Shown here: in pieces, positions 1,235-57,423 of the stretch
Numbering within the stretch: the first letter of the stretch is position 1
Layout of the letters: every line of letters starts with the position of its first letter
Assembly: GCA_965205685.1 (NCBI GenBank)
Contig: OZ242174.1
Location: 285,231 to 349,230 of the forward strand
Direction of reading: 5' to 3'
Source of the DNA: Gammaproteobacteria bacterium
GTDB taxonomy: Bacteria; Pseudomonadota; Gammaproteobacteria; UBA4575
DNA length: 64,000 nucleotides
Translations under genes and position numbers: made by a program
Notes under the pieces: model-generated
Database searches by the model: none
The model's input: the letters and a program-made list of their open reading frames with translations, nothing else
What the model was told of the DNA's origin: nothing

Positions 1235-2509
1235 CTAGCAGCCCAGTCCCCGGGCCATCTGGTCGTAGCTGGTAAGCGGCACCGCGCACATGCGCGCCCA
1301 GTCTGCCTCACTGAGGTCCGGGCGCTTCAGGATCTCGAGCATCTCGTTGAACTGGGCCAGCGCCTTGCAGTCCACCGCCTCGGGAGCCGCGGCTGTGCTG
1401 TGCGACGGCCAGACGTGATCTTTGGCGTGCTGCCAGAAGGGGCTGTCAAACTTCGAGCCGCAGGAATAGTGCCAGCCGACGAACAGCCCGTAACAGAGCA
1501 TGTTGTTGACCAGAAACCGGTTGACCGCATCGGCATCGCCGTCGGCATATTCGCCCGGGCGATTGAGGCGCATGTGCAGGATCATGCCGATCTGGATCTG
1601 CGCGGAGACGATGGCGGTGGCCTCGAGCGGCTCCATGAAGGCCGCCGCATTGCCGATGCGCGCGATCGCGCCATCGTAGATCCTGCGATTCACGAAGTTG
1701 GGAAAAGGGATGACCGAGCGCGGCTCGAACTCGCCCACACCGTCACTCTCGAGGAAGGCATCGAAATCCGCCTGCACTTCGTCGAGCTCGCTGAGGTCGC
1801 GGTTGAAGATGTAGCCGTAGGAGGTGTGCACCGTGAGCGGGATCACGAAAATCCAGCCGTGCGGACGTGCCACGGCCCGGGTGTAGGTGTGTTGCAGCAC
1901 CGGACCGTCGCCCTTGGCATCGAAAAGTGTCGGGCAGCGGCGGATGCAGGCGGTGTTGGTCGGGATGAACGAGATGTTGATGTGGTGTTCGGGATTCAGT
2001 TCCCTAGGGAAGCCGCGGGCATCGAAGACCAGATCGTAACGCTCAGGCTCACGGCCCTCGAAGGTGACCTCGGCCCCGCCGTCTATGCGCGTGATGTCCA
2101 GGACCTTCGCATCGATGTGCTGCGCGCGTGTGCGCTCGTACAGGAGTTCGGCAAGATAATCGGCCGACAGGTGGTAGGCGTAGGCAACATCCTTCGGCGA
2201 GAAGAAATGCGTGAAGTCCTGGTCGCATCGGCCCCATCCCTCGAAGGCCACGCCGTACTTGCGCGTGCCCCGCAAGTGCTGCTGGACGTCGTCGTTCGGA
2301 AGGTCCGTGAGTTGCTGCAGGTGTTCGACCAACGCCGGCCAGCTGCCCTCGCCCACGCCGATCACCGGGATGCGCGAGTCATAGATGTGGTGCAGTTCAT
2401 AGTCGTCCCCTGGGTGCAGGCGGGTGATGCTTGCAGCCGCCAGAGAACCCGCAGTGCCTCGCCCGACCACCGCGACCTTGCGCAAGGATTGGCTACCTGG
2501 CTGGATCAT
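1235..2509 (-). CDS. flavin-dependent (tryptophan-type) halogenase
   Basis: N-terminal FAD fold VAVVGRGTAGSLAA. It has the GWIFVIPL motif, the analogue of the GWxWxIP motif of flavin-dependent halogenases. Length 424 aa. Confidence 0.7.
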   Translation of the reverse strand: MIQPGSQSLRKVAVVGRGTAGSLAAASITRLHPGDDYELHHIYDSRIPVIGVGEGSWPALVEHLQQLTDLPNDDVQQHLRGTRKYGVAFEGWGRCDQDFTHFFSPKDVAYAYHLSADYLAELLYERTRAQHIDAKVLDITRIDGGAEVTFEGREPERYDLVFDARGFPRELNPEHHINISFIPTNTACIRRCPTLFDAKGDGPVLQHTYTRAVARPHGWIFVIPLTVHTSYGYIFNRDLSELDEVQADFDAFLESDGVGEFEPRSVIPFPNFVNRRIYDGAIARIGNAAAFMEPLEATAIVSAQIQIGMILHMRLNRPGEYADGDADAVNRFLVNNMLCYGLFVGWHYSCGSKFDSPFWQHAKDHVWPSHSTAAAPEAVDCKALAQFNEMLEILKRPDLSEADWARMCAVPLTSYDQMARGLGC

Positions 2510-2828: not shown

Positions 2829-4058
2829 TTAGAAGCTGAAGATGAGTTCCGCACCCGCGAAACTGTCGCGCCTGCCATCGTAGGTCAGGTCCTTGCGGTC
2901 TGAGCCCAAGTTGGCGAAGGTCTCAAGTCGCATCGACCAGCTGCCCGCGAGGCGGCGTTTGAATTCCAGGTTCAGGGTACGCGTGTTGTAGCGAAGATCG
3001 GCAAGCAGGCCAGCGATAAGCTCCGTGCCCTGCACGTCGTTGAAGGCGAGAAAGCCGGTGAGGTACATATCGTTTTGCCAGGCGCTGGTGGCCCGGCTGC
3101 CGCGTTCATCGTAGAGCCACTCGCCCAGCAGGGTCAGGTCGTACGGGGAATCAAAGAGCGCATAGAGCGTGCGCTCCACGCCAACGATGAAGGCACCGTA
3201 ATCTTCCCCCTCACCGAGCAGGTTTTGCGCGCCGTGCCGGCGGATGGCTTCCAGCTTGTACAGCACAGGCTCGGTGGTGAGCTGCGCTTCGAGCCCGAAC
3301 TGGCGGATCTGCTCGTAGAACGGCAGTAAGGGAGCACCCATGCCCGGTATGCTCCCGGCATCCGGATCCACCACGAACCGGGGTTCGCGGTTGGTGCCGG
3401 AAAACGCGCTCAGCGCGATGTCGAGCACGCCCACGGCGTGGCTGTAGCGAAACGCGACATCGACGTGGCGCTCCTCGGCGCCGCTCTCGTAGGCGGCATC
3501 GTCCTCGATCAGGCGGCCTGCACGCAGCCGCCCGGAACGCCCCGGAAAGGTCTGCCTGCGGTGGTAGGGCAGTACGAAGGTCTCGGCCAGGCCCCAGTCC
3601 CCGGAGACCGCCAGGTGAAGCATCGGCTGCCCCAGCTTGGGCCGGTCGCGCGGGTGCTCGACGAGGTCGATCTGGTTGACGATGTCGACCAGGTTGTGCA
3701 CCTCTGCCACGCCCCAGAAAACGCGGTCCACGCCCGCTCGCAGCTGCCAGGAATGCCCGCCCCACTCGCCGTACCTCAGCAGGTAGGCCTCGCGCACATC
3801 CGCGTGCGTGCGCCTGGAATCGGCGGTATCAAAGCGGTACAGCGGGGTGAAGGTGAAGCTGGTGGTGGGAGTGAGTTCACCGTGCAGCGTCGGCTCGAGC
3901 ACCCAGCCCACGGTGGACGAGCGCTGCCCCGCATGCGCGGGCGACTCCGGGTAGCCGCGGGTCTGCAGGCTGAGATCACCCGAGAGATCCAGCGCCCGAG
4001 CCTCGATGCCCGCACCGGCCAGGAACACGAGGGACGCTATGGCGCCAGAGAATCGCAT
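2829..4058 (-). CDS. outer-membrane beta-barrel protein (DUF1302-like partner of RND exporters)
   Basis: Signal peptide MRFSGAIASLVFLAGAGIEARA. The C-terminus ends with an aromatic residue (…ELIFSF), typical of OM barrels. The start overlaps the stop of the upstream LolA-like gene. Confidence 0.55.
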   Translation of the reverse strand: MRFSGAIASLVFLAGAGIEARALDLSGDLSLQTRGYPESPAHAGQRSSTVGWVLEPTLHGELTPTTSFTFTPLYRFDTADSRRTHADVREAYLLRYGEWGGHSWQLRAGVDRVFWGVAEVHNLVDIVNQIDLVEHPRDRPKLGQPMLHLAVSGDWGLAETFVLPYHRRQTFPGRSGRLRAGRLIEDDAAYESGAEERHVDVAFRYSHAVGVLDIALSAFSGTNREPRFVVDPDAGSIPGMGAPLLPFYEQIRQFGLEAQLTTEPVLYKLEAIRRHGAQNLLGEGEDYGAFIVGVERTLYALFDSPYDLTLLGEWLYDERGSRATSAWQNDMYLTGFLAFNDVQGTELIAGLLADLRYNTRTLNLEFKRRLAGSWSMRLETFANLGSDRKDLTYDGRRDSFAGAELIFSF

Positions 4059-4924
4059 CAGCGCACGCGTCGCAGTGCCAGTTTGTTGAATTCGCTGTCG
4101 TCGAGGTTGGTGCGAAACCTGAAGTCGGTCCAGTGCAGCACCGTGCTGGCCTTGGTCAGGTGGTTCACCATGGTCTGTTCCCCGGCCCGCCAGAACTGGT
4201 CCAGGTATTGCCGGTAGTTCGCAAACGTGAGTGTCTTCAGGTGCGAGTCCTTGCGGTCGTACAGTTCCATCTTCCAGACCCGAAGCTCACCGGTGTCCTG
4301 CCAGACGATCTTGCGGCTGTATCCGGAATTCTTGTCCAGCGGCACCTGCTCGGTCACCGTACAGCTGAGCACGCCACAGGACTCGTCGCGAAGGTACTTG
4401 TAGGTGTATTCCTCCACTTCCGGTGTGCTCATGTCCTCGTAGGAGAACTCGCTGCCCATGAAGGACCCGGAACGCTTCGAGGCGTTGATGCGCTTCACCC
4501 GCTTCAGGGCCGGCAGGTACAGCCACTGGTCGTCCTGGGTGTTGATGTGGGCATGGGTCAGCAAGGCGGTGCCCTGCACGTCGCGCGGCTGGTCGAACAC
4601 GAACAGGCTCTTGTCCCCGTCGCCTGCCACCTCCAGCACCTTGAAGCGCATCTGGCGGATGCTCTCGCGCCCGTACCGATCGCGCAGCACCATCGTCATG
4701 CCCGCAGTGAAATCCCCGAAGCCGTCGTTGCGGGCCTCGGCCTCCAGCGCGATCCTCAGCCCCTTCTCCTGCGCCGTCTCCGCCTGGACCGGTGCCTGCG
4801 CGAGGCCCAGGACCGCGAGGACCAGGGCCAGGGTCCCGAGCCATCCCTTGCGGGGGCGTAGGAAAGCCTTCGTCGGGTCTTTTGGACCCCATCGGTTTCG
4901 GGCGGTTTCGTGATCAGGAAACAT
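4058..4924 (-). CDS. LolA-like outer-membrane lipoprotein-sorting family protein
   Basis: The signal peptide WLGTLALVLAVLGLAQAPVQA is followed by motifs typical of the LolA-like family that accompanies COG1033 RND exporters. The start was chosen at an internal Met (ORF extends to 5038) and is uncertain. Confidence 0.55.
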   Translation of the reverse strand: MFPDHETARNRWGPKDPTKAFLRPRKGWLGTLALVLAVLGLAQAPVQAETAQEKGLRIALEAEARNDGFGDFTAGMTMVLRDRYGRESIRQMRFKVLEVAGDGDKSLFVFDQPRDVQGTALLTHAHINTQDDQWLYLPALKRVKRINASKRSGSFMGSEFSYEDMSTPEVEEYTYKYLRDESCGVLSCTVTEQVPLDKNSGYSRKIVWQDTGELRVWKMELYDRKDSHLKTLTFANYRQYLDQFWRAGEQTMVNHLTKASTVLHWTDFRFRTNLDDSEFNKLALRRVR

Positions 4925-5140
4925 CTGGACAGGCGTGTGATGGACGTGTGACATTGTACCTTGAGTGCCCGGAACAGGTGAAGTCACCGGCGTGCGAAGC
5001 CCCGGGCCGGGGCGGCACCATGGCGAGAATTTAGTCATTCCCGGTCGAGATTGCTTATAATCGCTAAAAGTTTCAACACCATCCTGAACGGGATGGCCCC
5101 GGGACTTTGCTTGGTCCAGGTGAGGAGGCTGCTCTAGGTC

Positions 5141-5692
5141 GTGTTCAACAATCCATTCGAGTCATTTCACAACATGGTCGCCGAGGCCAAGGAAGAACGT
5201 GAGCAGCTGGACCGGCTGCTGACCATTTCTACCCCCAATGAGCGTGCGCTGGTGGCTGCCATCGCCGGGGTGCTGGTGGTGCTTTTGGTCTGGCTGGTGT
5301 TTGGCAGCGTGGCCCGCAGCCTGACGTTCGACGGGGTCCTGGCCGGTCCCGGTGAGAGCACGCTGACAGGCGAGCACAACCTGCAGGCGATGGTGTGGAT
5401 CAAGCGTGATGCCGCGGCACAGATCGAGGCCGGTCAGCCTGCGAGGATCGAGTTCAGTGGAGCCGACGGGCACCTCCACACCCTGGCAGGGGAAGTGACA
5501 GGCATTTCCGCACTGCCCCTGACCGAGTTCCTGGCGATGTTCGAGGGCCGTGCACCGCTGTCGGTGCACCGCCTGCACATCCGACTCGATGAACGCCCCG
5601 AGGGCGCTGTGCCTGCACGCAAGGAATGTGAAGTCACCATCGAAGTGGGCAGACAGTCGCCGATCGCACGCCTTCGGATGAGGCCCTCCTGA
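5141..5692 (+). CDS. truncated HlyD-like membrane-fusion protein of an NHLP-type bacteriocin export system
   Basis: A single TM segment (LVAAIAGVLVVLLVWLVF) is followed by a beta-barrel/lipoyl-like segment. It is only 183 aa and lacks the alpha-helical hairpin. Its stop lies 1 nt before the C39 ABC exporter start. Confidence 0.5.
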   Translation: MFNNPFESFHNMVAEAKEEREQLDRLLTISTPNERALVAAIAGVLVVLLVWLVFGSVARSLTFDGVLAGPGESTLTGEHNLQAMVWIKRDAAAQIEAGQPARIEFSGADGHLHTLAGEVTGISALPLTEFLAMFEGRAPLSVHRLHIRLDERPEGAVPARKECEVTIEVGRQSPIARLRMRPS

Positions 5693-5693: not shown

Positions 5694-7904
5694 ATGGCAC
5701 CGAGTGCCTCCAAGGGCACCGGGGATCAGGCCACCTCGGATTCCGTCAAGCACCGGATCGCCACACCCGTGATGCTGCAGATGCACGCCTCCGAATGCGG
5801 GGCGGCGAGCCTCGGCAGCGTACTGGGCTTTTTCGGGCGCTGGGTGCCGCTGACCGAGTTGCGCGAGAAGTGCGAGGTCAGCCGCGACGGCAGCAGCGCG
5901 GCGAGCCTGCTGCGGGCCTCCCGCCACTACGGGCTGGAATGCAGTGGCCTGAGCGTACGTTCCGAGTCGCTGAAAAAACTGGAGTTGCCGCTGATCCTGT
6001 TCTGGCAGTTCAGTCATTTCCTGGTCCTCGAAGGCTTCGACGAGCGGTACTTCTACCTCAACGACCCGTCCACCGGGCGGCGCAAGGTCAGCGCCGAGGA
6101 GTTCGAAAAGAGCTACAGCGGGATCGCCTTGCGCTTCAAGCGCGGCAAGGATTTCAAGGCCGGCGGCGAGGCTCCCGGCCTGTTCACACAACTTGGCACC
6201 CTGCTGGCCGGCTCCTGGACGGTGCTTGCCGGAGTGGCGGCCACCGCCCTCATGGTGACGTTGCTGGCCCTGGTCGTGCCCGCGGTGCTCAGCATCTTCG
6301 TTGACGACGTGCTGGAAAACCACGGCGCCTGGGGCGGGCTGGTGGGCGCGCTGCTGGGTGCCGGGGTGCTGGTCTACCTGCTTTCCCTGCTCAAGCACCG
6401 GTTTTTGAAGCGACTGGCGGTGCGGATTTCGGTGATTGGATACAACCGCAACCTGACGCGCCTGCTGCGCCTGCCAGTGGAATTTTTCGAGCACCGCCTG
6501 ACCGGTGACCTGACCGACCGGGTGTCCTCCATCGACCGCATCGCGAAAAATCTCACTGACCAGTTCCTGGTGCTGCTCGTCGACATGGTCATGAGCGCGG
6601 TGCTGCTGATCGTGATGCTGGTGTACGAACCCCTGCTGAGCCTGATCGTGGTGTTACTCGCCGTCCTTCACGGCATGGTCGTGCACTTTTTGAATTCGCT
6701 TCGCACGGTGCGCATCCAGTCGATGCGCCGCGAACAGGGATTGCTGATCGGCGTGGGCATGCAGATGCTGAGCCATGCGGACACCCTTCGCATGACCGGT
6801 GCGGACGACCGGTTCTTCTCGCGCTGGAGCGGCCAGCAGGCGCGCGAACTGGAGGCGCGCCAGCACTACTTTGAACTCAGCGCATTCAACACCGCGCTGC
6901 CGGGGCTGGTGGCCATTCTCCGGGCCGCCGTGATCCTCGGCATCGGCGGAAGCCTGGTGCTGGCCGGGGAAATGAGCCTGGGTGCCTTGGTCGGGTTCTA
7001 CATCCTGGCGGAGATGTTCCTGTCGCCCATCGGGCAGTTCCTGGAGTTCGCCGACAGGCGCCAGGCCCTGGAGACCGACCTGCAGCGACTCGAGGACATC
7101 TCGCGGGCCGCTGAAGATCCCGTGATCCGCCGCCGAAGCCCGGAATCGGAGTCCATCCCGACGTTCAACGGGCGCCTGCAGCTGACCGGGCAACTCGAAC
7201 TGCGCGACGTCACCTTCGGATTCAACAGGAGCCGCCCGCCCCTGCTCAAGGAGTTCAACCTGACGATCCAGTCCGGGCAGCGCGTTGCCGTGGTGGGCCC
7301 GAGCGGTTCCGGCAAGTCGACCCTGGCGCGCCTGGTGTCCGGGGTGTACCAGCCCTGGTCCGGCGAAATCCTGTTCGACGGGCACCTGCGCGATGAGATC
7401 CCGGAGGAAGTCCTGCGCCAGTCCATCTCCATGGTGGACCAGGAGGTCGTGCTGTTTTCCGCGTCGCTGCGCGACAATATCACCTTGTGGAATTCGGCCA
7501 TCCCGGATGAGGCCATCTTCGCCGCCACGCGCGATGCCTGGATCCACGACGAGATCCTGCTTCGCCCGCAAGGCTATGCGACCGAGGTCGAGGAAGGTGG
7601 GGTAAACTTCAGCGGCGGCCAGCGCCAGCGCCTGGAAATCGCCCGCGCGCTGGTCGGCAACCCGACCGTACTCATCCTGGACGAGGCCACCAGCGCGCTC
7701 GATGCGGCGACCGAGGAGCATGTCGATGATGCCTTGCGCCGTCGCGGCGTGACCTGCCTGATCGTGGCACACCGCCTGAGCACGGTGCGCGACTGCGACG
7801 AAATCATCGTGCTCGATCAGGGGACCGTGGTGCAGCGCGGCACGCACGATGACCTGATTGCAGATCGCGATGGCACCTATTACAAGCTGGTCAAGTCGGG
7901 ATAA
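5694..7904 (+). CDS. NHLP/bacteriocin-family ABC exporter with N-terminal C39 peptidase domain
   Basis: C39 active-site context QMHASECGAASLGSV. Six TM helices. Walker [10 protein letters not shown], signature FSGGQRQRLEIAR, Walker B LILDEATSALD. Confidence 0.9.
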   Translation: MAPSASKGTGDQATSDSVKHRIATPVMLQMHASECGAASLGSVLGFFGRWVPLTELREKCEVSRDGSSAASLLRASRHYGLECSGLSVRSESLKKLELPLILFWQFSHFLVLEGFDERYFYLNDPSTGRRKVSAEEFEKSYSGIALRFKRGKDFKAGGEAPGLFTQLGTLLAGSWTVLAGVAATALMVTLLALVVPAVLSIFVDDVLENHGAWGGLVGALLGAGVLVYLLSLLKHRFLKRLAVRISVIGYNRNLTRLLRLPVEFFEHRLTGDLTDRVSSIDRIAKNLTDQFLVLLVDMVMSAVLLIVMLVYEPLLSLIVVLLAVLHGMVVHFLNSLRTVRIQSMRREQGLLIGVGMQMLSHADTLRMTGADDRFFSRWSGQQARELEARQHYFELSAFNTALPGLVAILRAAVILGIGGSLVLAGEMSLGALVGFYILAEMFLSPIGQFLEFADRRQALETDLQRLEDISRAAEDPVIRRRSPESESIPTFNGRLQLTGQLELRDVTFGFNRSRPPLLKEFNLTIQSGQRVAVVGPSGSGKSTLARLVSGVYQPWSGEILFDGHLRDEIPEEVLRQSISMVDQEVVLFSASLRDNITLWNSAIPDEAIFAATRDAWIHDEILLRPQGYATEVEEGGVNFSGGQRQRLEIARALVGNPTVLILDEATSALDAATEEHVDDALRRRGVTCLIVAHRLSTVRDCDEIIVLDQGTVVQRGTHDDLIADRDGTYYKLVKSG

Positions 7905-10846
7905 TGCAGGACACCCAGCCCGCCTACTCCTCGATCGCCGAACTCGCGGCCCGCCTGGGGACTGACGTGCCCTGTGCCGGTAACCTGCCGGTGAAGCTCG
8001 ACGATGCGGACAGCATCTGGCTCATTGACCGGGGCACCGTCAACCTGTTTTTAGTCGAGCTCAAGGACGGTGTGGAGCAGTCGTCTCCACAGCATCTGCT
8101 GCGCCGCGAGGCGGGCTGGTTCCTGCCAGGGGTTCCTGCGCGCGAACCTGATGCGCAGGATGGAACCACGCTGAGCCTGGTAGCCAAGGGTCTGCCCTGC
8201 ACCTTGCTGAAACGCTTGCCGGTCTCCCTGCTGTCCAAGGTGCACCCGGGCGAGCTTGCCGAGCAGACCGATGCCTGGCTGAGCGAGATGACCGACACGC
8301 TGTCGCGCTTCGCCACGCCCGCACCGCGCCCGACGGCCCTGGCCGAGGCCGGTGCGATACAGGTCCCGGCGCATAGCACGCTGTCGGTGCAGCGCAAGGT
8401 GGTGTGGGCGTCCCCGCACCCGGGCAGTGCGCTGCTGTTCATGGACATCGTCGATCCGATGGAGTTGGCCGAGGCCAGCGGCGCAGGGGATGCGGTTCTG
8501 CCGCTGACCCGCACCAGCTGGCTGACCACGCTGGAGGAGACCACGCTGGAGTGCGTGAGCACGCAAACCCTGGCCGAGCAGGGCCGCCTGCAGGGCGCAC
8601 TGTCGTATTTTCATGAGGTCGCCTTCACCCTGGAGCGCCTGAACCGCCGCCTAGCCGTGGTCGACGATGTGAACCTCGAACGTGCCCGCACAACGAGCCG
8701 GCGCACGGCCGAGAAGGCGGCCCGCGCGCGCCTGTTCAACCTCTACGACCAGCCGGTGGGCCGCTATGCCGGCCTTGAGGACACCACCTTGGTCGATGCC
8801 CTGCAGGTCATTGGCCGCCACGAGGGTATCGATTTTAAGATTCCCGTACGTTCCGGGCCTTCGCAGGCTTCGCTCGGCTTGGTCGACGTGCTGGATGCCT
8901 CCGGAGTGCGCGCAAGGCGCGTGCGGCTCAAGGACGAGGACCGGTGGTGGCGCACCGACAGCCACGCGATGCTGGGATTTCGTGCCAAGGACGGCCAGCC
9001 CGTGGCCCTGCTGCCGGGTGTGTTCGGCGGCTACCGCGAAATCGACCCGGTCAGCAAGCGCACGGTTCGCGTCAGCCAGGAACGCGCAGATGCACTGCGT
9101 GAGGACGCGTGGATGTTCTACCGCCCCTTGCCTGCAGACGAGGTGAAACCGGCGGACCTGCTGGGCCTGGCTCTGCAGGGATCGGGACCGGACATTGCCC
9201 GGCTGGTGCTCGCAGGACTTCCCTACGGGCTGATCCAGTTGTTGCCGGCCATCGCGCTTGGCTTTGTCGCCCATGAAATCGCCGCAGGCGGCACTGCCGG
9301 TGCGATCTACGCCGTGGCCTGGGTGTTGGCCGGGTTCGGCCTTCTCGGGGCACTGCTGCACCTCGCGCAAAGTACGGCGATGATGCGTCTTGAGGGGCGC
9401 TCGGCCTCGCGCGCAGAAGCGGCCTTCTGGGACCGCCTCATGCGATTGCCGCCGGCCATCCTGCACCGCCATCCGTCAGGCGACCTGGCGATGTCGGGCA
9501 TGACCTTCCAGAACCTTCGAGACGGCCTGCAGGGAGTGGTCGCCGACAGCTTCCTGTCAGTCATCTTCCTGGCCCCGGTGTTTGCCGTCATCTTCTTCTA
9601 CGATGCCGCCCTCGGCAGTCTCGCCCTGGCCTTCAGCCTGGGGTCGCTGCTCATTACAGGGATGCTCGGTGTCCTGCAGATTGCCCCGTACGGGCGCATG
9701 ATTCGTGCGTCACGGCGTGTCGCCGGGCGCCTGTTCCAGATCGTTGGCGGCTTTGCCAAGCTGCGCGTGGAAAATGCCGAAGGCTCCGCGTTTGCCATGT
9801 GGGCCGAGGACTACCGCGAGCAAAAACGCGCGGAACTCGATTTGAGCGTGCTGGAGGGGCATTCGCGGGCGTTTTCCGCAGCATTGCCGTTTCTCGCGGG
9901 AGCCTTCTTGCTGCTGGCCGCAGTGACCGTCGGCGAGCGCATCATGCCGGTCGGTGATTTTCTGGTCGTCTACCTGGTCTTCATCGCCTTCCAGAGCGCG
10001 ATCGCACGCCTTGGCGAGTCTCTGGGGACCGTTGCGGCCCTGTTGCCGGCGTTCAAGCAGATGCGCCCGCTGCTGGCTGCAGATCCAGAAACCGAGACCG
10101 AAGGCGAGCCGGTGGAATACCTGGGCGGGGACCTCCTGTTCGACCGCATCTCGTTTCGCTACGACCCGGACGGCCCGCTGATTCTCGACGATGTCACGAT
10201 CCACGCACGCGCAGGCGAGTTCATCGCCATCGCCGGCGAGTCCGGCACCGGCAAGAGCACCCTGTTTCGCCTCGCACTCGGCATCGACCGGCCCACGGCG
10301 GGCGCGGTGTACTACGACGGGCGCGATGTGCGCCACCTGAACCTGCGCCAGCTGCGCCGCAAGGTTGGTGCGGTGCCGCAAGCCGTGGGACTTCACCCCC
10401 TGGATATCTGGGACAACCTGGTCAGCCATCATGACGGGATCACCACCGAAGAGGTCTGGGAGGCGGTGCGAACCGCCGAAGTCGAGAAAGAGATCAAGGC
10501 CATGCCCATGGGCATGATGACCATGGTCGGCGCTAGCGGCTCGGTGCTGTCTGGTGGCGAGAGCCAGCGCGTCACCATCGCCCGCTCGGTGATCGGCAAG
10601 CCGCGGATCATGTTGTTCGACGAGGCGACCAACTGGCTGGATAACGAAAACCAGGCCCGGGTCATGGACAACCTGACCGACCTGACCTCTACCCGGCTGG
10701 TCATCGCCCACCGCCTGTCCACGCTCGAGCAGGCGGATCGCATCTACGTGCTGTCCGGCGGCAAGGTGGTGCAGCACGGCAGCTTCGAGGAACTCATGGA
10801 AGAGGACGGGGTGTTCAAGGAACTGGTCAAAAGGCAGATCGCCTGA
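7904..10846 (+). CDS. second ABC exporter of the NHLP bacteriocin system (long N-terminal extension, permease and ATPase)
   Basis: A ~430-aa N-terminal domain precedes the TM domain. Walker A GESGTGKST, signature LSGGESQRVTIAR, Walker B MLFDEATNWLD. ATG overlaps the preceding stop (TAATG). Confidence 0.85.
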   Translation: MQDTQPAYSSIAELAARLGTDVPCAGNLPVKLDDADSIWLIDRGTVNLFLVELKDGVEQSSPQHLLRREAGWFLPGVPAREPDAQDGTTLSLVAKGLPCTLLKRLPVSLLSKVHPGELAEQTDAWLSEMTDTLSRFATPAPRPTALAEAGAIQVPAHSTLSVQRKVVWASPHPGSALLFMDIVDPMELAEASGAGDAVLPLTRTSWLTTLEETTLECVSTQTLAEQGRLQGALSYFHEVAFTLERLNRRLAVVDDVNLERARTTSRRTAEKAARARLFNLYDQPVGRYAGLEDTTLVDALQVIGRHEGIDFKIPVRSGPSQASLGLVDVLDASGVRARRVRLKDEDRWWRTDSHAMLGFRAKDGQPVALLPGVFGGYREIDPVSKRTVRVSQERADALREDAWMFYRPLPADEVKPADLLGLALQGSGPDIARLVLAGLPYGLIQLLPAIALGFVAHEIAAGGTAGAIYAVAWVLAGFGLLGALLHLAQSTAMMRLEGRSASRAEAAFWDRLMRLPPAILHRHPSGDLAMSGMTFQNLRDGLQGVVADSFLSVIFLAPVFAVIFFYDAALGSLALAFSLGSLLITGMLGVLQIAPYGRMIRASRRVAGRLFQIVGGFAKLRVENAEGSAFAMWAEDYREQKRAELDLSVLEGHSRAFSAALPFLAGAFLLLAAVTVGERIMPVGDFLVVYLVFIAFQSAIARLGESLGTVAALLPAFKQMRPLLAADPETETEGEPVEYLGGDLLFDRISFRYDPDGPLILDDVTIHARAGEFIAIAGESGTGKSTLFRLALGIDRPTAGAVYYDGRDVRHLNLRQLRRKVGAVPQAVGLHPLDIWDNLVSHHDGITTEEVWEAVRTAEVEKEIKAMPMGMMTMVGASGSVLSGGESQRVTIARSVIGKPRIMLFDEATNWLDNENQARVMDNLTDLTSTRLVIAHRLSTLEQADRIYVLSGGKVVQHGSFEELMEEDGVFKELVKRQIA

Positions 10847-13474: not shown

Positions 13475-13726
13475 TTACCAGCAGCAGCAAAGCCCGGCGG
13501 AAATCGCTTCGAGCTGCTCTTCGCTGATGTTCGGGTCCGGTGGCAGGGCAAGATGCACCGTCTGCATGTCGCTCTCATGGACCACAACGTTCATCGACTC
13601 GGGCATGGTAATGCCCAACTCTGCGCTGATGGTAGATTTCGGGTCATCGAGAAGCTGTTGCCTGAATTCTGTGTCCAGGGCAGACTTCTCAACAATCTGC
13701 TTAAGCATGTCATCGCCGCTTCTCAT
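13475..13726 (-). CDS. NHLP-family RiPP precursor peptide, predicted core LCCCW
   Basis: Leader motif FRQQLLDDPKSTISAELGITMPESMNVVVHESDMQTVHLALPPDP. A double-glycine-type site QLEAISAG (L-7, I-4, AG-2/-1) is followed by the C-terminal LCCCW. AAGGAGG lies 6 nt before the ATG. Confidence 0.75.
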   Translation of the reverse strand: MRSGDDMLKQIVEKSALDTEFRQQLLDDPKSTISAELGITMPESMNVVVHESDMQTVHLALPPDPNISEEQLEAISAGLCCCW

Positions 13727-14439: not shown

Positions 14440-16773
14440 TCAGGGTGAGGCCGCGGAGGACTTTCCGGGCATTCGGTCCACCAGCATCAACAGCGCCGGC
14501 AAGAGGGTCAGGTCGGCCACCAGCGCAAAGCCGATGATCAACGCGGTCAGCACGCCCACCTGCGCGGTGGGCACGAACGGCGAGAACACGAAGATCAGGA
14601 AGCCCGCGACCAGCACGAGCGTGGTGGTGAGCAGCGCGCGCCCAGCCGTATCGAAGGCATAATGAATGGCCTGCTCGGGCGCCTGGCCGTATTCGCGGCG
14701 CGCCCTCTGGTACTTGCTTAGAAAATGCACCGTGTCGTCGACGACGATGCCGACGGTCATGGCGACCACGACCGAGAGCGAAAGCCCCACCTGCCCGACC
14801 GTCAACCCCCAGACCCCGAAGCCCAGCGCCGCCGGCACCAGGTTGGGCACGATGCTGATCAGGCCCAGGCGAATCGACTGCAGGGCGATCAGCAGGATGG
14901 CGGAAATTGCCACCAGCACCAGCACGGTGCCAATCAGCATGGCGCGGATGTTGCGCTGTCCGATATAGGCGAACAGGGCCGCCGGCCCGGTGCTGTTGAT
15001 CTCGGTAATGTCCGATGCGTTCTCGGCCAGCCAGGCGTTGGCGTGCGAATTCAGCTCCAGCACCTCCCGCGAGGACAGCGTCTCGGCCGAGACCGAGACG
15101 CGCGTCGCCGACCTCGAGCGGTCGATCTGGTTGTTCATGTCCAGGCCCTGCGGCAGCGACAGCTCGTACAGCAGCAGGTACTGCGCCGCGAGCTCCTGGC
15201 TTTCCGGGAGCCGGTAGGCCGCGGGATCATCGCCATGCATGCTCATGTTGAGTTGCTGGAAGGTGTCTGTGATGACCGCGACGTGGCGCACCGGGGGCTG
15301 TTCACGGTACCACTCGGCAAACCGGGCGATCTCGGTCAGGAAATCCGGGTGGGTGGCCCCGCCTTCCTCGGGAGCGTGCAGCGAGTACTCCAGCAGGGTG
15401 TTGCCGCTCAGGTGCTCGTCCATGAAATCGGTGTCCTGGCGAAACTCCGTGCCCTCGTCGAAAAAGTGCACCAGCACGTCGCTGAGCTCGTTGCGGGGAA
15501 TGGCCGTGAGCATGACCGGAACGATCACCAGCCAGGTGACGAACAGCGCAGTCCTGTAGCGCAGCACGGTGTTGGCGAGGCGCTCGATGGTGACCGCACC
15601 CAGCTTTCGCTCTGGGCGCGCACGAAACGGCAACAGCGAGATCAGGGCCGGCAGGAAGGTCACCGAGAGCGTGAAGGAGGCGACGATGCCGATGGCGATG
15701 AAGTTGCCGAGATGACGGTAGGGCGGCACCTCGGAGAAATTCATGCTCAAAAACCCGAGCGCGGTGGTCAGGCTCGCCAGAAACACCGGGTGCAGGTTGT
15801 ATCTGAGCGACTCGACGATGGCCTCATTCTTGGAATCGCCCGCGCGAAGCCGCTGCTGCAGGGCCACCAGCAGGTGCACGCAGTTGGCCACGACGATCAT
15901 CAGCACGATGGTCGGAGCCGGCGAGATGGGCGGCGAGAACGGCAGGCCAAGCCACACGCCACCGCCAAGGGATACGAGGATGGAAAAGACGATCACCAGG
16001 CCGGTCGCGGCCACACCCGTCCAGCTGCGGACGAGCAGGCCGAGAATCACGGCCATGAGCACGAGGCTGGCCGGCAGGAAAATCTTCTGGCTGTCGACCG
16101 AGGCCTCGACAAAGGTCTGGCTGACCATGACCGTGCCGACGATGCGAAGGTCAATGCCCGGGAAGCGCTGCTCGCCCTCGCCAGCCACCTTGCGGGCGTA
16201 CCCGGTCACTTCTGCCACGGCCTCGAGCAGCCCCTCCTCCGGCGGCTCCAGGGTGACGTTGACGACACTGACATCGCCGCCGCGCCCGAGGATGCTGCCG
16301 GCGATCCTGGGGTCGGACAGCGCAATGGCCCGGATCTGCTTGCGAACCTCGGCATCGTCCAGTGTTTGCGGGTCGATGAGGTCGCGCACGTACAGGTCAT
16401 CGCCGTCGGCGGTGGTGTACTGGAAGTTGGCGAGCGAGTCCACGCGTCGCGAATAGGGCGTTCGCCAGGCGGCCTCGGTCAGCCAGACGGTGGCCGAAAG
16501 CGCGTTTTGCGAGGTGGCGTCACCGTCGTCGGGGACGATCAGGAACGCGAGGTTCTCGTTCTTGCCGTAGGTTTTCTCAAGCGCCTCCAGATCCAGCAGC
16601 TGCGGGTTGTCTCCATCGAAGAAGATGCGGTAGTTGGCGGAGAACTCAAATCGCGCGATGCCGCTTGCAGCGAGGGCCACCAGCACCAGCGAGGCGACAA
16701 TGATTGGCCAGCGCCAGGCGATCACCCACTCGCCAAAGCGCATCGCAAACGGTGGATGTCCGGGTGTATTCAC
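14440..16773 (-). CDS. RND-superfamily exporter (COG1033 / MMPL/HpnN-like)
   Basis: 777 aa with twelve predicted TM segments in two blocks separated by large periplasmic loops. The N-terminus MRFGEWVIAWRWPIIVASLVLVALAASG is typical of this family. Confidence 0.85.
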   Translation of the reverse strand: MNTPGHPPFAMRFGEWVIAWRWPIIVASLVLVALAASGIARFEFSANYRIFFDGDNPQLLDLEALEKTYGKNENLAFLIVPDDGDATSQNALSATVWLTEAAWRTPYSRRVDSLANFQYTTADGDDLYVRDLIDPQTLDDAEVRKQIRAIALSDPRIAGSILGRGGDVSVVNVTLEPPEEGLLEAVAEVTGYARKVAGEGEQRFPGIDLRIVGTVMVSQTFVEASVDSQKIFLPASLVLMAVILGLLVRSWTGVAATGLVIVFSILVSLGGGVWLGLPFSPPISPAPTIVLMIVVANCVHLLVALQQRLRAGDSKNEAIVESLRYNLHPVFLASLTTALGFLSMNFSEVPPYRHLGNFIAIGIVASFTLSVTFLPALISLLPFRARPERKLGAVTIERLANTVLRYRTALFVTWLVIVPVMLTAIPRNELSDVLVHFFDEGTEFRQDTDFMDEHLSGNTLLEYSLHAPEEGGATHPDFLTEIARFAEWYREQPPVRHVAVITDTFQQLNMSMHGDDPAAYRLPESQELAAQYLLLYELSLPQGLDMNNQIDRSRSATRVSVSAETLSSREVLELNSHANAWLAENASDITEINSTGPAALFAYIGQRNIRAMLIGTVLVLVAISAILLIALQSIRLGLISIVPNLVPAALGFGVWGLTVGQVGLSLSVVVAMTVGIVVDDTVHFLSKYQRARREYGQAPEQAIHYAFDTAGRALLTTTLVLVAGFLIFVFSPFVPTAQVGVLTALIIGFALVADLTLLPALLMLVDRMPGKSSAASP

Positions 16774-16784: not shown

Positions 16785-19184
16785 TCAGGCGATGACCGCC
16801 ACGGGGTTGAGGTCAGCCTCGGCCAGCGGTGCCGTGCGCCTGCCCACCTGCACCGGCACCTCGTACAGGCGCCCCGGGGCAAAGCGCTCCCAGAAGTGGC
16901 GCATGCCCGGCACGATGACCCGTGCCACCGGCATGCCGATATCGGGCCGGGTCTGCTCGAGCACCAGCATCTCCAGGCCCTTGTCGGCCACCAGGGTACA
17001 GCAGCGCTCGACGTCCTCCTTGATGTCGGCAGTCTCGGGCAGCGGGTAGTCCGTCCGTCCCCGCGCGGGTACCCCGGGGTCCGGAGCCAGGTAGGGATGA
17101 TCCTCGAGCCTCGCGTTCTGCCACCAGGCGAGGCACATCGGGTCATCGACCCCGTATCCGGTGTGCCCGGCCTGCGGGCGCGGAACCCAGGTCAGGCACT
17201 GGTTCATCTCGCACACTGCCCGCAAGGCGGCGATGCGCGCATCGGTGTGTGCTCCGGCCCCGTACAGGATGTCTTCGGACTGCGCATCGGTCCTGCGCGA
17301 CAGGGCCACGAAGGCCGGGATGGGAAAATCGGCGCTGACGTCGAGCAGCCACATGTCGCGCTCGAGCGTTCGGTAGTAGTCCGGTGCACCGGCCAGGTAG
17401 TCGTCGTTGAAACTCTCAAGCTCGACGCGCGGACAGCGCAGGCGGTTGTACCACCAGATAGAGAAGGCATCGCGCTCCACCAGCTCGAGAAAGCCCTGCA
17501 GGATGGCCTCCTCCAGCGTGTTGCCGGCCGCGCACCCGTTCGAGTCCGCCCAAAGATCCCGCGGGCCGCGCTGCTCGGGGGTCATGCCGTAGAGTATCGA
17601 GGTCGGCAGGTAGCAGTGGCGCGCGCGGGTGAGCGAGTACACCGGCGACCAGTCGACCTCGGCTTCCACATTAAAGCGCGGGGGAATGATGTTGTAGGGG
17701 TGCGCGCGGGCATTAATATCATCGGCGTGCTCGAGCTGGTGGTCGCTGAACAGCTGCACCTCGTTCGGATGGATGGCCTGCCCGTCTTCGCCCTGGCCTT
17801 CGAACTCCGAATAGCGCTTGCGGGTGCGGATCTCATCGCCGTGGAAGGCGCCCGAATAGCGCTCGATGGCCTCGCAAAGCGCGCTCGCCTGCGACTGCTC
17901 GGGCGTGCTTCCCTTGCCCGCGCTCTTGCTTCGAAGGCTGCGCCGCAGCGAACTCAGGCTCTTGATGCGAAGCGCCAGGTTGGAGCCTGCCCAGTGCACG
18001 TGCAGCCAGGAGTCGCTGACCTCCGTGGTGCGTTCCAGCCAGCTGACCACGCCGCTGACCGGGCTGATCAGGTGGCGGTAGCGGGCCAGGGTCTGCTCCG
18101 GATGGACCGCGCGAAGCCCGCCGCTGTTTTGCACATCCTTCGGGCTGGGCTTGAGCTGCACTGCCCGTGGCGGGCGATCCGCCCGGTAGTGCGTTTCCTC
18201 GCCACACACGGGACACTGCGGGCGCCTGCACACGGGATGGCTCTGCGTTTTCAGAGGACCAAGTTCGAGCGTGATGGCATTCGAGTGGATCGGGGCACGC
18301 TCGGTGAAGACCAGCCACTTGGCGATCTCGGCCGCGATCAGTGCGTGCACGGCGCCCAGCAGCCCGGGCTCGGCGGCGAAGGCACGAAAAGCGCCTGCCT
18401 CGCCCTCGCGGTTGCGCACGAAGGTGTGGACCTCTTGGTGGTTTTGCAGGCGGTAGGCGAGACAGTTCCAGCACGGCCCGCCCGTGCCCGGTCGAAACAC
18501 CGGACCGATGAGCGGGCTGGTCCCCTTGGGACGGGCCAGCATCCAGGGGCGGCCCGAGGCCAGGTGCCCGCGGTTGAGGCCGGCGTGCTGCGCATCGAGA
18601 TAGTCCTCGCAGACCACCACGTCAAGTGCCTCACCCTGTGGGCTCACGGCCACCCCGAGCGACTCCAGCGCACCCGTGAGGGCACATTCCTCGTCCCCGG
18701 CCACGCTCACACCCGTGCTCTCCAGGCGCTCCTCGACGAACCGCGGGGAGGCCCCGAGCGAGGACCACCAGGCTGCGCGCTCGCGCGCCATGCGGTATTC
18801 ACCTGAAACGATGTAGCCTCGCGAGGTGAGGGATTTGAGCCAGGCGTTGGGGTCTTGGCCAACCCACTGTGCCCCCAGGGTAGCGGTGATCTCGTCGTGG
18901 CTGTTCGTGCCATCCAGCAGCGCCAGCAGCGGTCCGTAGAATGGACCGTGCAGCAGCGTGTTGAAGGATTCGGAGACGAGCAGCACGCGCTCCTCATCGA
19001 GGATCCGGTACTCGAGATGCGGGGCCAGCACGGGCATTTCGATAACGCCGGTATCGGCCGCACTCACCTTGTGCAACAGGCCTTGCGGGGCAGTCGCATT
19101 CGGCCCTGTGCCCGCCGCGTGCGGGCTGTGTGGTCCTGGCATACCCGAATCCGCAACCATGCTCCGTAGCATAAAGGGGATCAC
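16785..19184 (-). CDS. TOMM-type cyclodehydratase: E1-like (ThiF-like) docking domain fused to YcaO
   Basis: The N-terminal domain has a CxxC…CxxC zinc tetrad (CWNC…CPVC). The C-terminal YcaO region includes SGGLRAVHPEQTLARY and ALCEAIERYSG. This architecture co-occurs with NHLP/Nif11 precursors. Confidence 0.85.
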   Translation of the reverse strand: MIPFMLRSMVADSGMPGPHSPHAAGTGPNATAPQGLLHKVSAADTGVIEMPVLAPHLEYRILDEERVLLVSESFNTLLHGPFYGPLLALLDGTNSHDEITATLGAQWVGQDPNAWLKSLTSRGYIVSGEYRMARERAAWWSSLGASPRFVEERLESTGVSVAGDEECALTGALESLGVAVSPQGEALDVVVCEDYLDAQHAGLNRGHLASGRPWMLARPKGTSPLIGPVFRPGTGGPCWNCLAYRLQNHQEVHTFVRNREGEAGAFRAFAAEPGLLGAVHALIAAEIAKWLVFTERAPIHSNAITLELGPLKTQSHPVCRRPQCPVCGEETHYRADRPPRAVQLKPSPKDVQNSGGLRAVHPEQTLARYRHLISPVSGVVSWLERTTEVSDSWLHVHWAGSNLALRIKSLSSLRRSLRSKSAGKGSTPEQSQASALCEAIERYSGAFHGDEIRTRKRYSEFEGQGEDGQAIHPNEVQLFSDHQLEHADDINARAHPYNIIPPRFNVEAEVDWSPVYSLTRARHCYLPTSILYGMTPEQRGPRDLWADSNGCAAGNTLEEAILQGFLELVERDAFSIWWYNRLRCPRVELESFNDDYLAGAPDYYRTLERDMWLLDVSADFPIPAFVALSRRTDAQSEDILYGAGAHTDARIAALRAVCEMNQCLTWVPRPQAGHTGYGVDDPMCLAWWQNARLEDHPYLAPDPGVPARGRTDYPLPETADIKEDVERCCTLVADKGLEMLVLEQTRPDIGMPVARVIVPGMRHFWERFAPGRLYEVPVQVGRRTAPLAEADLNPVAVIA

Positions 19185-19294
19185 AGGCGCTGACCAGCGT
19201 GAAATGCGCCAGTCCGGCGCCTTGACATGCCAATCCCGATGCGGACAATGAATTTCAATGATGAATACATTCCAGCGCTTGGCTGGAGGTTGTT

Positions 19295-21763: not shown

Positions 21764-21877
21764 CACGCCTCATACGAGTTGAATAGCAAGCGCGAGCGCG
21801 CCTGATTTACAATTCCCCTCCACGGTGACCGCAGCCTTGCGGGGGATTACCGAGAGAACCCCCGGACCGGAACCCGT

Positions 21878-56185: not shown

Positions 56186-56196
56186 CCGTGATCCCT

Positions 56197-57393: not shown

Positions 57394-57423
57394 GAGCCCA
57401 CCTGGACAGTATAATAAAAGCAA

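What the first reader, a model, noticed from the sequence alone, without database searches (positions are those of the whole stretch)
5141..5692. Minimal HlyD-like protein lacking the alpha-helical hairpin
Membrane-fusion proteins that couple C39 ABC exporters to TolC-like channels in Gram-negatives are ~400 aa with a long coiled-coil. This 183-aa version retains only the TM anchor and a beta-barrel/lipoyl-like segment. It could still gate the ABC exporter but could not span the periplasm in the usual way. It may be a degenerate copy, or export may use another route (the adjacent RND/LolA-like/OM-barrel set).
Basis: partly seen in the sequence, partly recalled or inferred. Interest (0 to 1): 0.5.

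Follow-up and report, generated by a model that had tools for sequence, protein, structure and literature searches.

The report
Minimal HlyD-type adaptor of RiPP exporter
The 183-residue gene is a real, conserved and selected mini version of the HlyD secretion adaptor that has lost the two domains needed to reach the outer membrane, so the peptide exporter it serves in sponge-symbiont bacteria probably delivers its product only as far as the periplasm.

Summary
The ORF 5141-5692 (+) exists exactly as described. It is the first gene of a three-gene cassette: mini-HlyD, then a C39-peptidase ABC transporter (TIGR03796), then a second ABC transporter (TIGR03797). The cassette lies inside an srp (sponge-derived RiPP proteusin) cluster with an LCCCW precursor, a Trp halogenase and a YcaO enzyme.

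It is not a frameshift or a decaying copy:
- More than 780 homologues, nearly all 183 aa, occur in 262 species-level genomes of many diderm phyla.
- It sits immediately upstream of ABC1 in 76 of 80 genome loci.
- dN/dS is 0.09-0.17.

Profile comparison (probability 100%, E 3e-46) links it to a ~296-aa sister family. That family carries HlyD_3 and lipoyl signatures and matches E. coli HlyD. The short form differs by one clean ~115-aa deletion that removes the lipoyl domain and the α-hairpin. What remains:
- a near-invariant cytoplasmic helix;
- one TM helix;
- a six-strand β-barrel, whose closest folds are EmrA, MacA and BesA.

The same module was lost independently at least four more times.

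Best reading: a functional inner-membrane assembly or regulatory subunit that cannot dock to TolC. Any outer-membrane step is separate. The neighbouring MMPL, LolA-like and DUF1302-like set is present in only about half of loci.

This is a new variant of a known kind, of moderate interest.

The parts
5032..5061 (+). sigma-70-like promoter candidate (TAGTCA-18-TATAAT) for the mini-HlyD/ABC1/ABC2 operon
   Evidence: Consensus scan, 10 of 12 matches; 2 sites found against 0.1 expected. Pattern match only.
5141..5692 (+). mini-HlyD gene, 183 aa, GTG start, TGA stop
   Evidence: ORF list and sequence. 780 homologues. dN/dS 0.09-0.17. hhalign to the ~296-aa HlyD-type family gives probability 100%, E 3.3e-46.
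5141..5233 (+). cytoplasmic N-terminal segment (aa 1-31) with a predicted helix at aa 7-29; the most conserved part of the protein
   Evidence: AF2 secondary structure. 90% identity to distant family members against 49% for the periplasmic part. dN = 0 against L005 and L006. Part of the stretch (aa 21-72) that matches TIGR03794.
5234..5302 (+). single transmembrane helix (aa 32-54)
   Evidence: Hydrophobic stretch PNERALVAAIAGVLVVLLVWLVF. AF2 helix 32-54 with pLDDT about 82-96.
5303..5689 (+). periplasmic six-strand beta-barrel domain (aa 55-183), homologous to the C-terminal beta-barrel of HlyD-type adaptors
5351..5377 (+). deletion scar (aa 71-79, loop GESTLTGEH), the site where relatives carry lipoyl N-half, hairpin and lipoyl C-half (~115 aa)
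   Evidence: A single block indel in MAFFT and hhalign alignments. Locally lower pLDDT, block mean 69.
5694..7904 (+). ABC1: C39 peptidase, permease and ATPase (TIGR03796, 857.7 bits, above cut-off)
   Evidence: Starts 1 nt after the mini-HlyD stop. The same 1-nt spacer occurs in 55 of 80 genome loci.
7904..10846 (+). ABC2: permease and ATPase (TIGR03797, 656.7 bits, below the 709.4 cut-off) with an unassigned ~290-aa N-terminal extension
   Evidence: Present downstream in 53 of 53 fully flanked loci.
13475..13726 (-). NHLP (proteusin) precursor, the cargo: leader ...EAISAG then core LCCCW
   Evidence: TIGR03793 at 68.1 bits. LCCCW is the srp core described in bioRxiv 10.1101/2023.06.09.544420.
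4058..5038 (-). LolA-like periplasmic protein (PF17131), divergent neighbour; candidate second-step carrier
   Evidence: Pfam E 2.2e-58. Present in 24 of 53 fully flanked loci. The role is inferred only.
2829..4058 (-). 409-aa secreted protein, possibly a DUF1302-like outer-membrane barrel
   Evidence: Signal-peptide-like N-terminus and C-terminal ...IFSF. Sub-threshold DUF1302 hit, E 0.013. No PDB sequence match. Present in 15 of 53 loci.
14440..16773 (-). MMPL/HAE3-type RND transporter; candidate second-step or immunity pump
   Evidence: Pfam MMPL at 3.6e-34 and TIGR00921. Present in 23 of 53 short-form loci and in 4 long-form loci.
1235..2509 (-). flavin-dependent Trp halogenase (SrpI-like) of the same cluster
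   Evidence: PF04820 at 2.7e-43. Present in 40 of 53 loci.
16785..19184 (-). YcaO cyclodehydratase of the same cluster
   Evidence: PF02624 at 8e-94.

Best explanation
The gene encodes a functional, streamlined member of the HlyD (type I secretion / NHLM 'Trans-Fuse') adaptor lineage. It is the third subunit of the ABC1/ABC2 leader-cleaving exporter of an srp proteusin cluster.

Shown:
- It derives from a ~296-aa HlyD-type adaptor by clean excision of the nested lipoyl and alpha-hairpin module.
- It keeps an almost invariant cytoplasmic helix, one TM helix and the six-strand beta-barrel.
- It is under purifying selection and is fixed in position directly upstream of ABC1 and ABC2.
- The same module has been lost several times independently in this lineage.

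Inferred:
- The cytoplasmic helix and TM helix do what they do in HlyD. They bind between and under the ABC transporter units, and they assemble them and tune their ATPase or substrate engagement.
- The barrel forms a low ring on the periplasmic face.
- With no lipoyl domain or hairpin, the protein cannot dock to a TolC-type duct.
- The exporter would therefore cleave the NHLP leader after ...SAG and release the small hydrophobic brominated, azoline-containing LCCCW product into the periplasm or the outer leaflet of the inner membrane.
- Any passage across the outer membrane would be a separate step. It could be diffusion or, in this window, possibly the neighbouring MMPL, LolA-like and DUF1302-like set.
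For: - Reality and conservation: 780 homologues, nearly all 183 aa. 262 species genomes from Proteobacteria, Binatia, Gemmatimonadota, Acidobacteriota, Nitrospinota and Ca. Synechococcus spongiarum.
- Operon: ABC1 follows in all loci and ABC2 wherever the contig allows. The spacer is exactly 1 nt in 55 of 80 loci and within 60 nt in 76 of 80.
- Selection: dN/dS is 0.09, 0.14 and 0.17 against the closest orthologues, with no non-synonymous change in aa 1-56 against two of them.
- Homology chain, first link: short profile against ~296-aa profile gives probability 100%, E 3.3e-46, with one ~115-column gap.
- Homology chain, second link: the long forms hit HlyD_3, HlyD_D23, Biotin_lipoyl and TIGR03794. 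Their profile hits E. coli HlyD 8dck/7sgr at E 5e-13, and also LipC, EmrA and MacA.
- Recurrent loss: in NJ bootstraps the short/long sister pairs P0196/P0198, P0251/P0267 and P0208/P0232 score 100% and P0180/P0230 scores 82%. All short forms formed one group in 0 of 100 replicates. Deletion boundaries differ between events.
- One independent short form sits in an intact short-ABC1-ABC2 operon.
- The cytoplasmic segment is 90% identical across the family against 49% for the periplasmic domain.
- Literature: deleting HlyD's N-terminal cytoplasmic helix abolishes TolC recruitment and HlyB activation (PMC4446572). The TIGR03794/6/7 cassette was defined by Haft 2010 (PMC2887384).
Against: - No experiment or complex model was possible, so stoichiometry, ring formation and lack of OMF contact are all inferred.
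- BesA shows that a hairpin-less adaptor can still work in a tripartite pump (PMC3807786, PMC8277102). Absence of a hairpin alone therefore does not prove independence from an OMF.
- The sister long form has only a short hairpin (~55 aa by alignment). The whole lineage may already have been TolC-independent.
- The phylogeny is distance-based on 178 columns, not maximum likelihood.
Confidence: 0.65

Rival explanations
1. Degenerate remnant: a HlyD gene decaying after loss of function, tolerated because export no longer needs it.
For: It fails the TIGR03794 cut-off (22.9 against 156.2 bits) and has no Pfam hit. About 60% of the ancestral periplasmic region is gone.
Against: - Length is fixed at 183 aa in hundreds of genomes across phyla.
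- dN/dS is 0.09-0.17.
- The N-terminus is near-invariant.
- The 1-nt junction to ABC1 is conserved.
- The remaining domain gives a confident folded model.
Confidence: 0.03
2. Assembly or sequencing artefact: a frameshifted or mis-assembled full-length HlyD.
For: None beyond the unusual length.
Against: - An in-frame stop lies 3 nt upstream of the start, and ABC1 begins 1 nt after the stop.
- No similarity to the missing module exists in any frame of the window.
- The same architecture appears in independent assemblies, including closed long-read MAG chromosomes.
Confidence: 0.01
3. It still forms a trans-envelope conduit, by an unconventional contact. The barrel ring would engage an outer-membrane or periplasmic partner directly, for example the LolA-like protein or the DUF1302-like barrel encoded next door, or an OMF with a long periplasmic reach. 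This would resemble the hairpin-less adaptor BesA working with BesC.
For: - BesA is a precedent for a hairpin-less adaptor.
- LolA-like, 409-aa and MMPL genes flank the cassette here and in related Gammaproteobacteria and Binatia.
- Gemmatimonadota carry a LolA-like gene with a MacB/FtsX ABC set instead.
Against: - Only 30 of 53 fully flanked loci have an MMPL or LolA-like gene nearby, and only 15 have the 409-aa gene.
- MMPL also accompanies the hairpin-bearing long form, so the association is not specific to hairpin loss.
- BesA retains lipoyl, barrel and membrane-proximal domains, whereas this protein has only the barrel.
- No OMF gene lies within 10 kb in the six annotated loci.
Confidence: 0.15
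4. Its essential role is on the cytoplasmic side rather than in export geometry. The invariant N-terminal helix would recognise the NHLP leader or the C39 and C39-like domains and license cleavage and transport. The periplasmic barrel would be a mere stabilising plug.
For: - The cytoplasmic 31 residues are the most constrained part, at 90% against 49% identity.
- The N-terminal region (aa 21-72: distal cytoplasmic helix, TM helix and first strand) is the only part still recognised by TIGR03794.
- The HlyD N-terminus is implicated in substrate-dependent signalling (PMC4446572).
Against: - The periplasmic domain is also under purifying selection; dN/dS is about 0.12-0.2 for aa 57-183.
- Every independent deletion event retained the barrel.
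- This rival overlaps with, rather than excludes, the best explanation.
Confidence: 0.15

Closest known systems
TIGR03794 NHLM_micro_HlyD ('Trans-Fuse') of the NHLP/Nif11 three-gene export cassette (Haft et al. 2010, PMC2887384)
   Same: Same operon role and position, upstream of the TIGR03796 and TIGR03797 transporters next to NHLP precursors. The region from the distal cytoplasmic helix through the TM helix (aa 21-72) is homologous to profile positions 6-57.
   Different: The profile has 421 positions, and this protein matches only the first ~57. It scores 22.9 bits against a 156.2 cut-off. The lipoyl and hairpin domains are absent.
~296-aa HlyD-family adaptors of sister proteusin clusters (e.g. 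P0149, P0160, P0277; annotated 'HlyD family efflux transporter periplasmic adaptor subunit')
   Same: Collinear and clearly homologous over the cytoplasmic helix, TM helix, first strand and whole beta-barrel (E 3e-46, 45% identity in hhalign). Followed by the same ABC1 and ABC2 genes, in NHLP/YcaO clusters.
   Different: They retain the lipoyl halves and a short hairpin of about 55 aa. Their clusters carry methyltransferases and an FAD-binding enzyme rather than the halogenase.
E. coli HlyD, S. marcescens LipC (T1SS adaptors; PDB 8dck/7sgr, 5c21, 5nen)
   Same: Same family by transitive profile search. N-in single TM anchor, cytoplasmic helix and C-terminal beta-barrel. Weak direct hit to the LipC barrel.
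   Different: HlyD has 478 aa and a very long hairpin that contacts TolC. Here both the hairpin and the lipoyl domain are missing.
BesA of Borrelia burgdorferi (PDB 4kks; the known hairpin-less adaptor)
   Different: BesA keeps the lipoyl, beta-barrel and membrane-proximal domains, is an RND partner and belongs to a tripartite pump (PMC3807786). The present protein has only the barrel and serves an ABC exporter.
MlaD / LptC-type accessory subunits (single TM helix plus a small periplasmic beta domain on an ABC transporter)
   Same: Overall architecture and size (from my own knowledge). Functional analogy only.
   Different: No sequence or fold evidence of relatedness was found. The barrel here is of the adaptor type.
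srp (sponge-derived RiPP proteusin) gene clusters (Nguyen et al. 2021, cited; SrpI/SrpE work in PMC10858898)
   Same: The window carries the hallmark LCCCW NHLP precursor, Trp halogenase and YcaO. Its distribution across sponge-symbiont phyla is the same.
   Different: The papers I could read do not discuss the transport genes or this 183-aa protein. The original JACS paper was not available.

Membership tests
HlyD / membrane-fusion (periplasmic adaptor) superfamily | Demonstrable sequence homology to bona fide members | tested here: met
   Short profile against ~296-aa profile: probability 100%, E 3.3e-46. That profile against E. coli HlyD: E 5e-13; it also hits LipC, EmrA and MacA. The long forms hit PF13437, PF16576 and TIGR01843.
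HlyD / membrane-fusion (periplasmic adaptor) superfamily | Beta-barrel domain (six strands plus a short helix) | tested here: met
HlyD / membrane-fusion (periplasmic adaptor) superfamily | Lipoyl (barrel-sandwich hybrid) domain | tested here: not met
   No Biotin_lipoyl, HlyD_D23 or BSH hit even at E<=10. Both lipoyl halves of the long forms (about residues 73-100 and 155-186) fall inside the deletion.
HlyD / membrane-fusion (periplasmic adaptor) superfamily | Alpha-helical coiled-coil hairpin | tested here: not met
   The model has no periplasmic helix longer than 7 residues. The hairpin segment of relatives lies inside the deletion. No remnant exists in any frame.
HlyD / membrane-fusion (periplasmic adaptor) superfamily | Genetic linkage to an inner-membrane transporter | tested here: met
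   Directly upstream of ABC1 and ABC2 in the window and in all 84 loci first examined.
HlyD / membrane-fusion (periplasmic adaptor) superfamily | Physical coupling to an outer-membrane factor (TolC family) | not testable with these tools
   No OMF gene lies within 10 kb in six annotated loci. OMF genes are often unlinked, so this is uninformative. Biochemistry or a complex structure is needed.
TIGR03794 NHLM_micro_HlyD (equivalog) | Whole-protein score at or above the curated cut-off (156.2 bits) over the 421-position model | tested here: not met
   22.9 bits; only profile positions 6-57 match.
TIGR03794 NHLM_micro_HlyD (equivalog) | Member of the three-gene cassette with TIGR03796 and TIGR03797 next to NHLP/Nif11 precursors | tested here: met
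   ABC1 scores 857.7 bits, above the cut-off. ABC2 scores 656.7 bits, the best family but below the 709.4 cut-off. An NHLP precursor is present at 68.1 bits. Cassette definition in PMC2887384.
srp proteusin biosynthetic gene cluster | NHLP precursor with LCCCW core, Trp halogenase (SrpI-like), YcaO cyclodehydratase | tested here: met
   The precursor ends ...AISAGLCCCW (TIGR03793). PF04820 halogenase. PF02624 YcaO. Description of srp clusters.
MCE / MlaD-like or PulM-like proteins (considered because of the TM-plus-small-beta-domain architecture and one JGI label 'PulM') | Sequence or fold match to MCE or GspM families | tested here: not met

The most novel reading that the evidence does not exclude
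HlyD-type adaptors have a minimal functional core of cytoplasmic helix, TM helix and beta-barrel. That core is enough to assemble and regulate a two-ABC, leader-cleaving exporter. In diderm sponge symbionts the TolC-docking module has been discarded repeatedly because these highly expressed srp and other proteusin products leave the cell by a two-step route: an ABC step to the periplasm, then a separate lipid-carrier-like system (MMPL, or MacB with a LolA-like protein and a DUF1302-like barrel) or simple partitioning. This would be a natural, recurrent conversion of a type I secretion apparatus into an inner-membrane-only exporter.
Probability: 0.3. Interest if true: 0.65.

Novelty: new variant of a known kind. 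Interest (0 to 1): 0.5.

Why it matters
Periplasmic adaptors are defined by their ability to bridge an inner-membrane pump to an outer-membrane duct. The hairpin and lipoyl domains are central to every assembly model.

Here a large, conserved and selected family keeps only the cytoplasmic helix, the TM helix and the beta-barrel, and it arose several times. That isolates the part of HlyD that matters for the transporter itself: assembly, ATPase control and substrate licensing. It gives a natural minimal construct for structural and biochemical work on PCAT and type I secretion systems.

It also bears on where the product of the srp clusters ends up, and hence on what it is for. These clusters are among the most widespread and highly transcribed RiPP clusters of sponge microbiomes. 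A periplasm-directed exporter suggests an envelope-associated or two-step-secreted metabolite.

In practical terms, the family has no Pfam or NCBIfam model and is annotated 'hypothetical'. Genome-mining tools therefore miss the third subunit of these exporters.

Tried and rejected
- Frameshift or hidden continuation: tblastn of eight long relatives against all six frames of the window found only the ORF itself, in one frame. Rejected.
- A second, full-length HlyD elsewhere in the window: the best other hit was E 0.46 near 60.4-61.1 kb, where no long ORF exists. Rejected.
- First AF2 run with 36 close homologues gave pLDDT 56.9, too poor to use. I repeated it with 75 diverse sequences and obtained pLDDT 80.4.
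- Direct profile search of the short family against PDB sequences gave only a marginal LipC hit, E 0.17. Homology had to be established through the ~296-aa intermediates.
- AFDB50 fold search: the library was not available.
A narrower alignment returned only 16 loci, too few for a statistical contrast of neighbourhoods between short and long forms.
- The original srp paper (PMC8780398) is not held. Other srp papers do not mention the transport genes.
- The 409-aa neighbour: no PDB sequence match and only a sub-threshold DUF1302 hit. 'Outer-membrane barrel' remains unproven.
- The terminator-like hairpin at 5260-5281 lies inside the TM-coding region and is taken as chance.
- The MlaD, LptC or PulM-like idea has no supporting hit.

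Full report
**Observation**

The ORF at 5141-5692 (+) is real: GTG start, 183 codons, TGA stop. An in-frame TAG three bases upstream fixes the N-terminus. One base after the stop begins a 736-aa protein that matches TIGR03796 (NHLP-family peptidase/permease/ATPase) at 857.7 bits from profile position 2. A 980-aa TIGR03797-like ABC protein follows. No coding space is left for a longer adaptor.

The only curated family that recognises the 183-aa product is TIGR03794, the HlyD-like member of the NHLP export cassette. The match covers only residues 21-72 (profile positions 6-57 of 421) and scores 22.9 bits against a cut-off of 156.2. Pfam finds nothing even at E<=10.

**Context**

The cassette lies in a RiPP cluster with these parts:
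- an NHLP precursor ending ...EAISAG-LCCCW (13475-13726, minus strand);
- a flavin-dependent Trp halogenase (1235-2509);
- a YcaO cyclodehydratase (16785-19184);
- an NHLP-leader/terpene-cyclase-like fusion (10901-12196);
- a LolA-like protein (4058-5038);
- a 409-aa secreted protein (2829-4058);
- an MMPL-type RND transporter (14440-16773).

The LCCCW core, the brominase and the YcaO enzyme identify it as an srp (sponge-derived RiPP proteusin) cluster. These are described as ubiquitous and highly transcribed across sponge-symbiont phyla (bioRxiv 10.1101/2023.06.09.544420; PMC9426513). The three-gene transport cassette was defined by Haft et al. 2010 (PMC2887384).

**Not an artefact or a relic**

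- A search of 5.8 billion proteins returned 780 hits at E<=1e-3. The best 120 are almost all exactly 183 aa and mostly 54-61% identical (a few close relatives reach 81-99%).
- A scan of one genome per species found relatives in 262 genomes. All listed records are MAGs. They come from Gammaproteobacteria, Alphaproteobacteria, Binatia, Gemmatimonadota, Acidobacteriota, Nitrospinota, Deltaproteobacteria and Ca. Synechococcus spongiarum. The closest, at 94%, is an uncultured Thiotrichales MAG.
- In every locus the gene is followed by ABC1, and by ABC2 where the contig extends. The inferred spacer to ABC1 is exactly 1 nt in 55 of 80 genome loci and within 60 nt in 76 of 80.
- Nei-Gojobori dN/dS against the three closest orthologues is 0.09, 0.14 and 0.17. 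There are no non-synonymous changes in residues 1-56 against two of them.
- tblastn of eight longer relatives against the window found no trace of the missing region in any frame.

**What was lost**

An exhaustive profile search of 1.84 billion cluster representatives gave 507 hits in two length classes, ~170-195 aa and ~290-305 aa. The long class carries PF13437 (HlyD_3), PF16576 (barrel-sandwich) and Biotin_lipoyl signatures. It scores 55-93 bits on TIGR03794.

HMM, MAFFT and hhalign alignments agree on the correspondence (hhalign probability 100%, E 3.3e-46):
- short residues 1-~73 equal long residues 1-~70;
- short residues ~74-182 equal long residues ~187-295;
- one block of ~115 residues is absent.

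By the Pfam coordinates that block is the lipoyl N-half, a ~55-aa hairpin and the lipoyl C-half. The long-family profile in turn hits E. coli HlyD (8dck_C, E 5e-13), with the TM helix and lipoyl N-half on HlyD 58-152 and the C-terminal part on HlyD 270-463. It also hits LipC, EmrA, MacA and BesA. This establishes membership of the HlyD lineage by a transitive chain.

**Structure**

With 75 diverse family members, AlphaFold2 gave mean pLDDT 80.4. The elements are:
- helix 7-29;
- TM helix 32-54;
- six strands with a short helix, at pLDDT about 90 or more over most of the strands.

**Recurrent loss**

In an NJ tree of 66 short and 40 long representatives built on the 178 shared columns, 55 short forms, including the window's protein, form one group. 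Others sit beside particular long forms.

| Short/long pair | Bootstrap | Note |
|---|---|---|
| P0196 / P0198 | 100% | 65.5% identity |
| P0251 / P0267 | 100% | |
| P0208 / P0232 | 100% | |
| P0180 / P0230 | 82% | |

All short forms fell into a single group in 0 of 100 replicates. The deletion end-points differ between events. One independent short form (P0196) lies in an intact short-ABC1-ABC2 operon of a different, halogenase-less NHLP/YcaO cluster. The lipoyl-hairpin module is a nested insertion whose two ends meet at the barrel. That geometry explains why clean excision is tolerated. Its repeated loss argues that it is dispensable, or costly, in these exporters.

**Mechanism (inferred)**

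The cytoplasmic 31 residues are the most constrained part: 90% identity between the window and distant members, against 57% for the TM helix and 49% for the periplasmic domain.

In HlyD, deletion of the N-terminal cytoplasmic helix abolishes TolC recruitment and activation of HlyB (summarised in PMC4446572). I therefore propose the following:
- The retained helix and TM helix assemble and regulate ABC1/ABC2. ABC1 has the catalytic-type Cys in its C39 domain, and both proteins have Walker motifs, read from the sequences.
- The barrel forms a low periplasmic collar.
- Without lipoyl and hairpin domains the protein cannot reach a TolC-type duct. This follows from established adaptor geometry.
- The leader would be cut after ...SAG and the small hydrophobic product released into the periplasm or the outer leaflet of the inner membrane.

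**The suggested alternative route**

- Among 53 loci with at least 8 kb on both sides, MMPL occurs in 23, the LolA-like gene in 24, the 409-aa gene in 15, and either MMPL or LolA-like in 30.
- Gemmatimonadota carry a LolA-like gene with a MacB/FtsX ABC set instead.
- MMPL also neighbours the hairpin-bearing long forms.
- The 409-aa protein has only a sub-threshold DUF1302 hit and no PDB sequence match.

**Comparison with known systems**

Hairpin-less adaptors are known. BesA is described as an aberrant adaptor that lacks the hairpin altogether (PMC3807786; PMC8277102; PMC4446572). BesA keeps the lipoyl, barrel and membrane-proximal domains, however.

I found no description of an adaptor reduced to the barrel alone, and none of this 183-aa family, in the searchable literature.

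The protein fails two defining features of the adaptor family, the lipoyl domain and the hairpin, and it fails the TIGR03794 cut-off. It is nevertheless homologous to that family and occupies the same operon position. It is best filed as a new, reduced variant of the HlyD/NHLM adaptor, not as a canonical member.

**Verdict**

The feature is real and functional, and it represents a recurrently evolved minimal adaptor. Interest is moderate (0.5). Specialists in type I secretion and tripartite pumps would find the barrel-only architecture and its repeated origin notable and experimentally useful. The mechanism remains inferred.

Noticed in passing
window 10901-12196 (+): A 431-aa protein whose N-terminal ~60 residues match the NHLP leader family (TIGR03793, 44.6 bits). 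The rest weakly resembles a squalene-hopene-cyclase/prenyltransferase alpha-toroid. A leader-like domain fused to a putative enzyme. Hit in all 53 fully flanked srp loci, although its NHLP-leader N-terminus cross-hits the precursor query at identical coordinates in many loci, so this count may be inflated.
   Followed up: partly
window 7904-8785 (+), N-terminus of ABC2: ABC2 carries a ~290-aa N-terminal extension ahead of the region covered by TIGR03797. It has no Pfam or PDB sequence match. ABC2 also scores below the TIGR03797 cut-off (656.7 against 709.4 bits).
   Followed up: partly
window 2829-5038 (-) and 14440-16773 (-); L002 2004-6097: LolA-like (PF17131), 409-aa DUF1302-like and MMPL/HAE3 RND genes flank the cassette in Gammaproteobacteria and Binatia. 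Gemmatimonadota srp loci instead have a LolA-like gene plus two MacB/FtsX permeases and an ABC ATPase. Two different lipid-carrier-style sets are thus attached to the same RiPP cluster.
   Followed up: partly
window 13892-14329 (-): A 145-aa ORF with an IS1595-type transposase zinc-ribbon lies between the precursor gene and the MMPL gene. It may be a mobile-element remnant inside the cluster.
   Followed up: no
window 19181-21766 (-): An 861-aa ORF next to YcaO has no Pfam hit even at E<=10. In related loci the comparable position holds a ~800-aa FA_desaturase/GlnE-like protein.
   Followed up: no
window 12208-13347 (+): A 379-aa protein with no family match, conserved in 39 of 53 srp loci and also next to YcaO in long-form clusters (372-377 aa, no Pfam hit). 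An uncharacterised conserved cluster component.
   Followed up: no
window 21878-24385 (+): An 835-aa subtilase (Peptidase_S8) lies adjacent to the cluster. It could be a second leader- or product-processing protease.
   Followed up: no
window 54447-57423 (-): HEPN/RES-domain protein and AAA_21 (AbiEii-like) ATPase genes, a toxin- or defence-like pair unrelated to the finding.
   Followed up: no
L042 and L043 (both from contig OY762925.1, Arenicellales MAG): One genome carries two copies of the mini-HlyD/ABC1/ABC2 cassette, about 190 kb apart across the start of the record, with equal similarity to the query. The srp locus is duplicated.
   Followed up: no
L018 10001-12114; L053 10001-11017: In these two loci the spacer between the mini-HlyD and ABC1 is 1.5 kb and 0.45 kb instead of 1 nt, which suggests an insertion in the otherwise rigid junction.
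   Followed up: no
window 26226-32598: An autotransporter with a Calx-beta domain and a TonB-dependent receptor. These are diderm envelope markers for the host genome.
   Followed up: no
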